This document shows positions 265 through 1,827 of a stretch of DNA of 40,893 nucleotides, one piece after another. A program made the translations under genes and the position numbers. Where the stretch lies: the sequence record PZ513996.1; one strand, given 5' to 3'. Origin of the DNA: a phage. How positions within the stretch are numbered: the stretch's first letter is position 1; each line of letters begins with the position of its first letter. A model generated the notes under the pieces. It was not told the DNA's origin and did no database searches. It was given only the letters and a program-made list of their open reading frames with translations.

Positions 265-1827
265 ATGACATTAGTCGCTAATATTGAAGTACGTGTAGAT
301 TCAGAAGGGGTAAGCTATAACGGAGGTAGCGTATCCGAAGCACTAGGTCGTGACGTTTATGTAGACGACTTCGGGGCTAAAGGTGATGCCCTCCTTCCAG
401 ATGGTACACGCAACCCTAACGCTACAGATGACTCGGCTGCCTTTCAGGCTGCGCTTGTAGAGTGCTATCGCCGTGGTGGTGGTACAGTTAAAGCTACAGG
501 CTGGAAGAGCTACTATATTGCTAATAAAGTGTATGTGCTGGCCTCAGAGTCCCCTAGTGCTATTGAAGTTACTACACCTCGTCGCCGCATTACTACTCTG
601 GATATGCAGGGTGCTCGCATTGTAGGGCGCACAGATACCGCAGACAGTACTAACATCTTCCTTGAGACTGGTTATATCAATACCTCAGGGAGACTTGTAT
701 CAGTATTTGGTAGCGGTCAGGAGGAGTTCCTTACTGTTGGTACCTGTATCCGAAACGCTACGCTCATGTCCTTCTATCAAGGTATGCGCCTGCGTAACCA
801 TGTATTCGGGTGTGAGGTTACGGACATTGTAGCAGTGGATGTGCAGCAGCTGGTTTATACAGAACGTTGCTTCTACAGCTCGTTCAAGAACTTGCAGTGC
901 AACGGCAGCTACACAGTAGGCCTGCATCGTTATGAGTTCCGTGATGAAGTGAATATCCAACCGCTTATCTCTGTGCATACAGGTGTATGCGACGTAGGTA
1001 TTAAGTTCGTATCTGCTGTAGAAGCACTGACGCTGTTTAACTGCGGTATCGAGAGCTTCCAGACACATGGTGTGTTTATCCAAGGCGCTTACAACATTAA
1101 GTTCGACTCCTGCTATATCGAGAGCAATGCCGCTGGTGCTTATGGTTGTATCGCTACCAGTGCCAACGCTATCACTATGGATAACTGCTGGGTGTACGGA
1201 AGCAGTCTAAAGATGTTCGGTGGGTTCAATGAGAACACGAACGTTATCATGCAGCCTAACAACCGCATTGGTGGTGGTGCTGTATGGTGGGATATTATCG
1301 AAGGCAGTAACTACAACCTCTCGGATTTGCACTTCCCTACCGGAATCATCGCAGGTAACCAGCGCTTAGCACTAGCTAACGCTAAGCAAGCCAGTACTGT
1401 ACAGCAGACTTACACAGTGTACGACCCGAACGTAGGGCTGGATGCACTGGTAGGTAAGGCAGTACAGACCAGCAAGTACCATCCTCAGAAGGTGAACGGG
1501 AAGATGTCTAACGGTAGTCAGGCACAGTTCACTGTAGGCGCTGCTCTTAGTACTGAAACCAGTGGTGCTGATAGCCGCGCAGTATGGAGCACTAACATTG
1601 AGTACACGGATACGCAGCTCCTGTATGTTGCACTGAAGATTGACCACAACCTGGGTACATGGTTCTGGTTAGGGCACGTAGCAGGTGGTACAGCTGTAGC
1701 GCTCAGTACTAACGACGTTAGTAAGCCTCCAGTTATCTCTTCTGATGAGAACGGGTACGTAGTAGTGCGTAGTCCGTACTTAGCTAGTCCTATCTCTCCG
1801 CATGGTGGTGAAATTCGTATTGTCTAA
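265..1827 (+). CDS. tailspike / polysaccharide depolymerase, pectate-lyase-like right-handed beta-helix (second receptor-binding protein)
   Basis: 520 aa; N-terminal VDDFGAKGDALLPDG...DDSAAFQAAL motif typical of beta-helix glycanase/tailspike N-caps; no T7 gp17-like adaptor domain. Confidence 0.6.
   Translation: MTLVANIEVRVDSEGVSYNGGSVSEALGRDVYVDDFGAKGDALLPDGTRNPNATDDSAAFQAALVECYRRGGGTVKATGWKSYYIANKVYVLASESPSAIEVTTPRRRITTLDMQGARIVGRTDTADSTNIFLETGYINTSGRLVSVFGSGQEEFLTVGTCIRNATLMSFYQGMRLRNHVFGCEVTDIVAVDVQQLVYTERCFYSSFKNLQCNGSYTVGLHRYEFRDEVNIQPLISVHTGVCDVGIKFVSAVEALTLFNCGIESFQTHGVFIQGAYNIKFDSCYIESNAAGAYGCIATSANAITMDNCWVYGSSLKMFGGFNENTNVIMQPNNRIGGGAVWWDIIEGSNYNLSDLHFPTGIIAGNQRLALANAKQASTVQQTYTVYDPNVGLDALVGKAVQTSKYHPQKVNGKMSNGSQAQFTVGAALSTETSGADSRAVWSTNIEYTDTQLLYVALKIDHNLGTWFWLGHVAGGTAVALSTNDVSKPPVISSDENGYVVVRSPYLASPISPHGGEIRIV

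What the first reader, a model, noticed from the sequence alone, without database searches (positions are those of the whole stretch)
265..1827. Second receptor-binding protein: beta-helix depolymerase without a tail adaptor
A pectate-lyase-like tailspike with only a short N-terminal peptide before the beta-helix and no gp17-like domain. It probably docks on the primary fiber, giving a dual-depolymerase particle and a broader or two-step host range.
Basis: inference. Interest (0 to 1): 0.45.

Follow-up and report, generated by a model that had tools for sequence, protein, structure and literature searches.

The report
Second tailspike of a K1 coliphage
This gene encodes the second, piggy-back tailspike of a published E. 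coli K1 podophage. It is a sugar-cutting beta-helix enzyme with no tail-binding domain of its own, and most likely hangs on the sialidase tail fibre by a short N-terminal peptide, an arrangement already known from Klebsiella phage KP34 and Shigella phage HRP29.

Summary
Window 265-1827 is an intact 520-aa ORF. Residues 1-28 are disordered, residues ~30-365 form a right-handed beta-helix, and a C-terminal beta-sandwich follows. There is no T7-gp17, P22 head-binding or TSP1/gp66 adaptor domain.

The window is not native DNA. It is a frame-0 concatenation of ORF calls from Escherichia phage vB_EcoP_P64441 (PQ847473.1, Slopekvirinae, published 2025). In the real genome the gene is the last one, directly after the endolysin. 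That is the position of KP34 gp57 and HRP29 gp52.

The body is 66-82% identical to E. coli and Salmonella (pro)phage tailspikes that carry other adaptors, so it is a horizontally swapped receptor module. Its substrate is probably O-antigen.

The first ~28 residues (MTLVANIEV...) resemble the N-termini of the syntenic gene in most Slopekvirinae relatives (the MALxxLV-type docking peptide). The 1082-aa endosialidase keeps the T7-like anchor plus the conserved branching domain, which matches solved adapter proteins such as HRP29 gp44.

It is a new member of a known kind, of modest interest.

The parts
265..1827 (+). RBP2: a 520-aa adaptor-less tailspike. It equals PQ847473.1 33648-32086, annotated there as 'tail fiber protein'.
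265..348 (+). Residues 1-28: lineage-specific N-terminal docking peptide plus neck (MTLVANIEVRVDSEGVSYNGGSVSEALG). It is disordered in the monomer model.
   Evidence: pLDDT below 50. It is similar to the syntenic N-termini of L003 (MALVENIHV..VDYNDTTVGAAL) and L005 (MALVRNIQVQLD..). Motif specificity is shown. The KP34 MALxxLV peptide is described in PMC6872550.
355..1360 (+). Residues ~31-365: right-handed parallel beta-helix, the putative glycan-cleaving domain. E263 and E286 (NCGIES / SCYIES on consecutive coils) are the candidate catalytic acids.
   Evidence: The catalytic assignment is inference.
1396..1824 (+). Residues ~378-520: C-terminal beta-sandwich domain with a conserved ...GGEIRIV end. 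There is no S74 chaperone.
35131..38379 (+). RBP1: a 1082-aa endosialidase tail fibre, the proposed carrier of RBP2.
   Evidence: Pfam hits PF03906, PF12218, PF12217, PF12195, PF12219 and PF13884
35131..35580 (+). RBP1 residues 1-150: T7 gp17-type anchor to the tail, with a coiled stalk.
   Evidence: PF03906 at residues 14-140 and PF05662 at 120-159; alignment
35563..35835 (+). RBP1 residues ~145-235: branching / tailspike-adapter domain (SYPMYF...YINGVCQTPGYSY...PAGTHVFMRLGEDV).
   Evidence: Conserved in all 14 RBP1 sequences aligned, which come from the related loci. A profile of this region hits PDB 23sh_r (E 1e-44), 8vbx_R PhiM1 gp47 (3e-42) and 8es4_G HRP29 Gp44 (1e-37). It is absent from a K1F-type fibre.

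Best explanation
The gene encodes the secondary receptor-binding protein (RBP2) of a KP34/HRP29-type 'anchor-branch' tail.

The primary fibre (RBP1, the 1082-aa endosialidase) binds the tail through its T7 gp17-like N-terminal anchor. Just downstream of that anchor it carries a ~90-residue branching domain. The 520-aa protein has no tail-binding domain of its own. Its flexible N-terminal ~28 residues, a hydrophobic MTLVANI start followed by a V-x-Y-N...V...L neck motif, dock onto that branching domain. Each of the six tail appendages would then carry two enzymes.

RBP1 removes the K1 polysialic-acid capsule. RBP2, a beta-helix glycanase whose body was acquired horizontally from O-antigen-type tailspikes of E. 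coli and Salmonella phages, then binds and probably cleaves a second surface glycan, most likely an O-antigen.

Shown here: the ORF, the fold, the lack of an adaptor, the native synteny, the mosaic origin, the conserved N-terminal module, and the conserved branching domain in RBP1.

Inferred: physical docking, virion incorporation, catalysis, substrate identity, and sequential versus alternative use.
For: Native position. The gene is the last one, directly after the endolysin, in PQ847473.1 and in an independent assembly, L020. PAS7, HRP29/Buco gp52 and 15 of the 17 IMG/VR relatives have the same layout; the flank of L010 ends before this region and in L004 the gene is present.

N-terminal peptide.
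- The motif M[AST]L[VIT]x[LNIV][VIT] occurs in 19 of 1329 six-frame ORFs of at least 60 aa across the related loci. Seventeen of those 19 are this syntenic gene.
- By my own count on the sequences printed, residues 1-28 are 37-46% identical to the L005 and L003 N-termini, although the downstream bodies are unrelated.
- Latka 2019 defined MALxxLV as the KP34virus RBP2 docking peptide. It also describes a 'group B' in which both RBPs are enzymatic (PMC6872550).
- In KP34gp57 the first 26 residues are disordered and are described as the element that anchors the spike (PMC10653864). This matches pLDDT below 50 for residues 1-28 here.

RBP1.
- PF03906 anchor.
- The branching domain is conserved across the subfamily.
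- It matches solved fibre/adapter proteins of related podophages with E 1e-37 to 1e-44, among them the HRP29 adapter gp44.
- HRP29 gp44/gp52 behaves as a tail protein complex, and gp44 is called a tailspike adapter (PMC11654681; bioRxiv 10.64898/2026.05.12.724579).
- PhiM1 fibres are reported to 'adapt' spike trimers (PMC11440229).
- On the KP32 scaffold, loss of the branching domain (RBP1 replaced by the branch-less KP34 RBP2) or deletion of the conserved peptide of KP32 RBP2 abolishes RBP2 incorporation (PMC13352976).

Mosaic body. It is 66-82% identical to tailspikes carrying PF09008, PF18668 or PF03906 adaptors. HRP29 gp52 is the exact analogue: a Sf6 tailspike body behind a short N-terminus.
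Against: - There is no experimental or structural data for this phage. The 2025 Virology paper on P64441 could not be read.
- The heptapeptide differs from the a-priori KP34 consensus MALxxLV at three positions (T2, N6, I7), and a 7-residue motif carries little information.
- Two relatives (L004 MQELIRD..., L007 MLNLTKV...) and HRP29 gp52 (MAAVSSL) do not fit the motif. The peptide is therefore either not strictly required or more degenerate than assumed.
- The KP34 peptide itself was not tested by deletion in the phage. The direct experiments were done on KP32, whose conserved peptide is different.
- HRP29 gp52 is not modelled in the PDB, so no atomic view of this interface was available to me.
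- The 'T4 gp10-like' nature of the branching domain was not reproduced by a sequence-profile search of the PDB.
- The O-antigen assignment rests only on the kind of phages that carry homologues.
Confidence: 0.72

Rival explanations
1. RBP2 is virion-bound as above, but its substrate is a second capsule type or another exopolysaccharide. The phage would then infect alternative hosts (K1 or K-x), as K1-5 does with K1 and K5, rather than penetrating two layers of one host.
Against: The closest bodies sit on P22-type head-binding domains in hundreds of Salmonella enterica and E. coli prophage contigs, for example serovar Rubislaw, and on Kuttervirus/Gamaleyavirus-type PF18668 adaptors. In the published E. 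coli survey these lineages are O-antigen specific (PMC10408124). The syntenic spikes of the nearest relatives are O-antigen spikes: PAS7 is annotated O103 and HRP29 gp52 is Sf6-like.
Confidence: 0.25
2. The protein is not a virion component. It is a soluble late enzyme co-expressed with the lysis cassette and released at lysis to strip surface glycan or biofilm around the plaque.
For: In the native genome the gene lies immediately after the spanin-holin-endolysin genes and far from the other tail genes. It has no recognisable attachment domain. Non-incorporated RBP2 still gives halos in engineered KP32 (PMC13352976).
Against: The same position holds proven or accepted virion spikes in HRP29 (gp44/gp52 complex) and KP34. 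A lineage-specific N-terminal module is conserved upstream of unrelated bodies, which a free enzyme would not need. RBP1 has retained the adapter domain although it now carries its own enzyme.
Confidence: 0.08
3. The spike is on the virion but binds another tail component (the nozzle or the gp11-like adaptor) directly, not RBP1.
For: SP6/K1-5-type phages hang spikes on a separate adaptor protein through 7- and 11-residue peptides (cited in PMC6872550). No interface structure was available here.
Against: P64441 encodes no separate SP6-type adaptor protein. The conserved domain downstream of the RBP1 anchor has no other obvious role, and in HRP29 the short protein made of only anchor plus this domain is the tailspike adapter.
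Confidence: 0.07
4. The protein is a binding-only or decayed spike with no catalytic activity.
For: There is no detectable sequence similarity to any characterised enzyme. The catalytic residues are only guessed.
Against: The ORF is intact and 98% conserved in a second isolate or assembly. An acidic pair on adjacent coils is conserved over a family diverged to ~22% identity. The model is well packed and high-confidence.
Confidence: 0.1

Closest known systems
Shigella phage HRP29/Buco gp44 (adapter fibre) plus gp52 (tailspike) 'hybrid tail' (Slopekvirinae; PDB 8ES4)
   Same: Same subfamily. The spike gene follows the endolysin at the genome end. The spike is ~510 aa with a ~35-40-residue N-terminus and no adaptor domain. 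Its body is borrowed from a P22-like phage (Sf6). The RBP1 homologue carries the same anchor plus branching domain (E 1e-37)..
   Different: HRP29 gp44 is a bare 260-aa adapter with no enzyme, whereas here RBP1 continues into a full endosialidase. The gp52 N-terminus (MAAVSSL...) and body are not similar to the target.
Klebsiella phage KP34 gp57 and 'group B KP34viruses' (Drulisvirus) anchor-branch dual-RBP system (Latka 2019)
   Different: The host and substrates are E. coli K1 polysialic acid plus a probable O-antigen, instead of two Klebsiella K-types. The heptapeptide is MTLVANI rather than MALxxLV. The bodies share no sequence similarity.
Escherichia phage PAS7 (Cepavirus, Slopekvirinae) tailspike WMX18832
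   Same: Nearest sequenced relative apart from P64441 itself. The spike follows the endolysin and starts MSLVSLV. RBP1 is 67% identical over residues 1-240..
   Different: PAS7 RBP1 is a 402-aa non-enzymatic fibre. PAS7 has an extra collagen-like fibre gene. Its spike body (annotated as O103-binding) is different.
Coliphages K1-5 / K1E / SP6 dual-tailspike system
   Same: Podophages that carry an endosialidase plus a second beta-helix spike, attached through very short N-terminal peptides.
   Different: There both spikes hang on a separate adaptor protein, and the phages belong to a different family-level lineage. Here the endosialidase itself is the anchor. This comparison rests on PMC6872550 and my own knowledge.
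P22-like prophage tailspikes of E. coli and Salmonella (638 aa, PF09008 head-binding domain)
   Same: 66-69% identical over residues ~30-520, the receptor-binding and catalytic body.
   Different: They carry a ~120-residue head-binding domain that attaches directly to the P22-type tail. The target replaces it with a 28-residue peptide.

Membership tests
KP34/HRP29-type anchor-branch RBP system: RBP2 member | Gene located after the lysis cassette and endolysin at the right end of a Slopekvirinae genome, separated from RBP1 by the terminase and lysis genes | tested here: met
   PQ847473.1 and L020. The layout is the same in PAS7, Buco and 15 IMG/VR loci.
KP34/HRP29-type anchor-branch RBP system: RBP2 member | No anchor or adaptor domain; instead a short conserved N-terminal peptide (MALxxLV in KP34viruses) | tested here: inconclusive
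   The absence of an adaptor domain is clear. The peptide MTLVANI matches the relaxed family motif and close relatives (MALVENI, MALVRNI). It differs from the published consensus at 3 of 5 specified positions, and some relatives lack the motif.
KP34/HRP29-type anchor-branch RBP system: RBP2 member | Partner RBP1 with a T7 gp17-like anchor | tested here: met
   PF03906 E 5e-12 at residues 14-140 of the 1082-aa protein
KP34/HRP29-type anchor-branch RBP system: RBP2 member | Partner RBP1 with the branching (tailspike-adapter) domain downstream of the anchor | tested here: met
   Residues ~145-235 are conserved with all relatives. The profile hits HRP29 Gp44, PhiM1 gp47 and 23sh gp9 at E 1e-37 to 1e-44. 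The domain is absent in a K1F-type fibre.
KP34/HRP29-type anchor-branch RBP system: RBP2 member | Branching domain is T4 gp10-like (Latka 2019 criterion, by HHpred) | tested here: inconclusive
   An hmmsearch of the PDB with the domain profile found no T4 gp10 chain at E<=10. HHpred-level profile-profile comparison with T4 gp10 was not run.
KP34/HRP29-type anchor-branch RBP system: RBP2 member | Physical RBP1-RBP2 complex and presence in virions | not testable with these tools
   No multimer prediction or proteomics was available. The P64441 paper is not held.
Pectin-lyase-fold (right-handed parallel beta-helix) phage tailspike/depolymerase | Right-handed parallel beta-helix core | tested here: met
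Pectin-lyase-fold (right-handed parallel beta-helix) phage tailspike/depolymerase | Homotrimer | not testable with these tools
   Only monomer prediction is offered.
Pectin-lyase-fold (right-handed parallel beta-helix) phage tailspike/depolymerase | Glycan-cleaving active site (acidic pair for hydrolases; Lys/Arg/Tyr, often with Ca2+, for lyases) | tested here: inconclusive
   E286 is invariant and E263 near-invariant, on adjacent coils, which suggests a hydrolase. No residue-level superposition or assay was possible.
T7 gp17 / P22 gp9 / TSP1-gp66 type self-anchoring tail fibres | N-terminal PF03906, PF09008 or PF18668 domain | tested here: not met
   None was detected in the target. All three are present in homologues of the body.

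The most novel reading that the evidence does not exclude
P64441 uses its two enzymes sequentially on one cell. The endosialidase on RBP1 clears the K1 capsule, and the piggy-backed RBP2 then digests the underlying O-antigen. A single six-fold branched appendage would thus drill through both glycan layers of an extraintestinal pathogenic E. coli. Host range would then be set by a K-type AND O-type combination rather than by K-type OR K-type. This would be a natural capsule-plus-LPS two-layer penetration device in a small podophage, and a tractable model for ordered glycan penetration.
Probability: 0.35. Interest if true: 0.5.

Novelty: new member of a known kind. Interest (0 to 1): 0.25.

Why it matters
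Practical value for phage therapy against K1 uropathogenic and neonatal-meningitis E. coli. If RBP2 targets an O-antigen, the host range of this phage depends on a K1 plus O-type combination, and resistance could arise at either layer.

The phage also supplies a natural E. coli example of the 'branching domain plus docking peptide' design rule now used to engineer Klebsiella phages. In this example the same receptor module also occurs on P22-type, Kayfunavirus-type and PF18668-type anchors, which makes it a ready-made set for plug-and-play RBP swaps.

Conceptually it adds little. The architecture, the synteny and the attachment logic are already described for KP34, HRP29 and PAS7, and the genome is published.

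Tried and rejected
1. The first structure prediction used the shallow 10-sequence alignment A1 and gave an unusable model (pLDDT 46). It was replaced by the 60-sequence alignment A2.
2. Sequence searches of the PDB with the protein and with the A1 profile found nothing for the body. The A1 hits were all to adaptor domains that the target lacks. The A2 profile matched only the N-terminal cap of pectin-lyase-fold proteins.
3. tblastn of the first 33 residues against 50,697 phage records found only P64441 itself. The peptide is too short and divergent for BLAST, so synteny-guided comparison was used instead.
4. I tried to infer the O-serogroup.
   - Only 3 of 5426 complete E. coli genomes carry a homologue.
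   - One Salmonella homologue comes from serovar Rubislaw.
   - The E. coli O-antigen review gave no counterpart.
   - No serogroup is claimed.
5. I considered that K1F-type endosialidases might carry the same 'branch' domain without an RBP2, which would weaken the inference. This was rejected: the K1F-like fibre has a PF18668-like domain there and no similarity to the Slopekvirinae branch.
6. I considered that the 461-aa ORF next to the gene in the window might be a partner. This was rejected: the adjacency is an artefact of the concatenation, and that ORF is half of the gp16-like ejection protein.
7. The P64441 paper (Virology 2025;609:110570) and the HRP29 structure paper (PMC10842012) are not held.

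Full report
**What the window is**

Every ORF in the 40,893-base window lies in frame 0. Each stop codon is followed directly by the next start codon, with no intergenic DNA. Piecewise BLAST shows the window is a concatenation of ORF calls, each written in coding orientation. The source genome is 100% identical to Escherichia phage vB_EcoP_P64441, PQ847473.1 (Autoscriptoviridae/Slopekvirinae, 42,960 bp). That phage was published in Virology 2025;609:110570, which is cited but not held.

The order of blocks in the window is not the native gene order. The block holding two small ORFs and the target (record 31562-33648) has been placed in front of the rest. Neighbourhood arguments taken from the window are therefore invalid, and I used the native record and an independent assembly instead.

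**The observation**

Window 265-1827 is an intact 520-aa ORF. In the native genome its ATG is preceded by taaGGGAAGaacATG, where taa is the in-frame stop of the endolysin. The start is therefore well defined, and no hidden N-terminal extension exists.

- Pfam finds only a sub-threshold Beta_helix match and no adaptor domain. PHROGs gives 'tail fiber protein'.
- An exhaustive HMMER search of 1.84 billion representatives finds a small family, 144 proteins at E<=1e-3.
- In a 60-sequence alignment of that family, 27 members hit PF12708 and 18 hit PF13229.
- An AlphaFold2 model built on this alignment is confident (pLDDT 88.5, pTM 0.79). Residues 1-28 are below pLDDT 50, a beta-helix spans about 30-365, and a beta-sandwich spans 378-520. 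An earlier model from a shallow alignment was unusable.

**Native context**

In PQ847473.1 all genes but one small call lie on one strand. The coding order is:

early genes ... DNA polymerase ... RNA polymerase - portal - scaffold - capsid - tail tube A - nozzle - gp14-like - 898-aa core protein - gp16-like - endosialidase (1082 aa) - TerS - TerL - small ORF - spanin - holin - endolysin - target - ~550 bp non-coding - early genes.

An independent assembly from run SRR32022205 (L020) shows the same order, with a 98%-identical copy of the target. The target is thus the last gene of the genome, immediately after the endolysin. The same position holds:

- KP34 gp57 (PMC6872550);
- the PAS7 tailspike, annotated as O103-binding;
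- HRP29/Buco gp52;
- a 460-690-aa ORF in 15 of the 17 IMG/VR relatives that I retrieved with the RBP1 N-terminus.

**Mosaic origin of the body**

From about residue 30 to the C-terminus the protein is 66-82% identical to E. coli and Salmonella (pro)phage tailspikes that carry other N-terminal modules:

- the P22 head-binding domain PF09008 (638 aa, hundreds of prophage contigs, for example Salmonella serovar Rubislaw);
- PF18668 (650/683 aa);
- a Kayfunavirus-type T7 anchor plus PF18668 (738 aa, P0020).

The junction falls exactly at the start of the helix (VDDFGA...).

HRP29 gp52 shows the same construction: a Sf6 tailspike body (E 5e-91) behind a short N-terminus.

Because the donors are O-antigen-type spike lineages (PMC10408124), and because the syntenic spikes of PAS7 and HRP29 are O-antigen spikes, I infer an O-antigen substrate. 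This is inference, and I could not assign a serogroup.

Across the family E286 is invariant and E263 is nearly so. They sit in repeated motifs NCGIES and SCYIES, 23 residues apart and so on adjacent coils. This acidic pair suggests a glycoside hydrolase rather than a lyase, but the point was not tested.

**The attachment question**

The N-terminal ~28 residues do not belong to the swapped body. They resemble the N-termini of the syntenic proteins in the closest Slopekvirinae relatives, although those proteins have unrelated bodies:

| Source | N-terminus |
|---|---|
| Target | MTLVANIEVRVDSEGVSYNGGSVSEAL |
| L003 | MALVENIHVDAYQVDYNDTTVGAAL |
| L005 | MALVRNIQVQLDASEIDYKLRAVAGAV |
| PAS7 | MSLVSLV |
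| KP34-like | MALIRLV, MALVDLV, MALTDLV |

A relaxed motif, M[AST]L[VIT]x[LNIV][VIT], occurs in 19 of 1329 six-frame ORFs of at least 60 aa in these loci. Seventeen of the 19 are this gene. The motif was derived post hoc, so this shows specificity, not an independent test.

Latka et al. 2019 defined MALxxLV as the conserved docking heptapeptide of KP34virus RBP2. They also described a 'group B' in which RBP1 is enzymatic as well. In the KP34gp57 crystal structure the first 26 residues are disordered and are regarded as the anchoring element.

Exceptions exist. L004, L007 and HRP29 gp52 do not fit the heptapeptide. L004 and HRP29 do keep the downstream V-x-Y-[NK]...V...L-D motif, so the docking element may be the whole ~28-residue segment.

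**The partner**

The 1082-aa protein is a K1-type endosialidase: End_N_terminal, beta-propeller, beta-barrel, tail-spike and S74 chaperone domains. It is 64-65% identical to the K1G/K1H/phi92-type enzymes from residue ~224 onward.

Its first ~235 residues are Slopekvirinae-specific:

- a PF03906 anchor at residues 14-140;
- then a conserved domain at residues ~145-235 (SYPxY...F(T/N)KAxVYINGVCQTPGYSY...PAGTxVFxRLGEDV) that is present in every relative aligned, including the short 250-320-aa KP34-type fibres made of little else.

A profile of this domain matches solved structures:

- a 307-aa 'tail fiber gp9' (23sh, E 1e-44);
- PhiM1 gp47 (8vbx, 3e-42);
- HRP29 Gp44 (8es4, 1e-37).

Supporting literature:

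- HRP29 gp44 is referred to as the tailspike adapter, and gp44/gp52 is handled as a tail protein complex.
- PhiM1 fibres 'adapt' spike trimers.
- On the KP32 scaffold, loss of the branching domain (RBP1 replaced by the branch-less KP34 RBP2) or deletion of the conserved peptide of KP32 RBP2 abolishes RBP2 incorporation (PMC13352976).

A K1F-type endosialidase fibre does not contain this domain. Its retention in P64441 RBP1 is therefore meaningful.

I could not reproduce the 'T4 gp10-like' label by sequence-profile search. I could not run a multimer prediction.

**Conclusion**

The most likely mechanism (confidence about 0.7) is the known anchor-branch architecture. RBP1 is anchored to the tail and carries the endosialidase. 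RBP2 hangs on RBP1's branching domain by its N-terminal peptide and supplies a second glycan specificity, probably an O-antigen.

Rivals:
- the same architecture but a capsule substrate and alternative hosts (0.25, a sub-hypothesis about the substrate);
- a soluble lysis-associated enzyme (0.08);
- attachment elsewhere on the tail (0.07);
- a non-catalytic binder (0.1).

**Novelty**

The genome is public and published, and the gene is annotated 'tail fiber protein'. The architecture is established for KP34, HRP29 and PAS7.

What is specific here is the combination of a K1 endosialidase in the RBP1 position with an O-antigen-type spike in the RBP2 position, in an E. coli Slopekvirinae phage. 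I did not find that combination described in the papers I could read.

I rate it a new member of a known kind, with an interest of about 0.25. The most novel reading still open is an obligate capsule-then-O-antigen two-step penetration (probability about 0.35).

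Noticed in passing
whole window (for example junctions 1827/1828, 6036/6037, 38379/38380): The window is not native DNA. 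All ORFs are in frame 0 and abut stop-to-start with no intergenic sequence. It is a concatenation of ORF calls from PQ847473.1, each in coding orientation and in non-native block order (record 31562-33648 first, then 3-31538, then 33658-42958). Promoters, terminators, RBSs and gene neighbourhoods cannot be read from it.
   Followed up: yes
window 1828-3213 and 38380-40893: The 461-aa and 837-aa ORFs are two halves of one gp16-like internal virion/ejection protein (PHROG 342 profile positions 189-484 and 446-1224). It is a single 1256-aa gene in PAS7 and in the independent assembly L020. The split is caused by an untrimmed 125-bp duplicate at the ends of the circularised GenBank record; 125 is not a multiple of 3, so the frame shifts.
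   Followed up: yes
window 1-117 and 118-264: Two tiny ORFs (38 and 48 aa) come from the ~550-bp non-coding stretch between the target's stop and the first early gene (record 31562-31885). That region is GC-rich and stem-loop-rich, and probably holds the genome end and early promoters. The ORFs are probably spurious gene calls.
   Followed up: partly
window 22564-23751 and 23752-24897: The DNA polymerase is annotated as two CDSs (395 and 381 aa). In the native record they overlap in different frames (21620-22771 and 22764-23909), with HNH endonuclease genes nearby. This is either a genuine split polymerase or a frameshift.
   Followed up: no
window 21670-22251 and 28015-28551: Two pentapeptide-repeat proteins sit in the early/middle region (GenBank annotation). 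They could be DNA-mimic or anti-defence proteins.
   Followed up: no
window 22441-22565: This is the only piece of the window derived from the opposite strand of the source record (21457-21581). It is a ~41-aa antisense ORF call and probably spurious.
   Followed up: no
L002 (PAS7) 18919-20019: PAS7 encodes an extra 366-aa collagen-like (GPQGP-repeat) 'putative tail fiber' between the holin region and the endolysin. It starts MSLINQ..., which partly resembles the docking peptide. P64441 lacks this gene. It may be a third, fibre-like appendage in some Slopekvirinae.
   Followed up: no
P0020 (738 aa) versus L022 (phage FFK3) 646-1600: The same receptor-binding body as the target also occurs fused to a Kayfunavirus (K1F-like) T7 anchor plus PF18668-like domain, where it would be the sole RBP. 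The module therefore circulates among at least four anchor types.
   Followed up: partly
L004 15030-17102 and L007 15541-17061: Two relatives have syntenic post-endolysin spikes whose N-termini (MQELIRD..., MLNLTKV...) lack the usual heptapeptide. The docking signal is either more degenerate than the published MALxxLV or lies partly in the following V-x-Y...V...L-D segment.
   Followed up: partly
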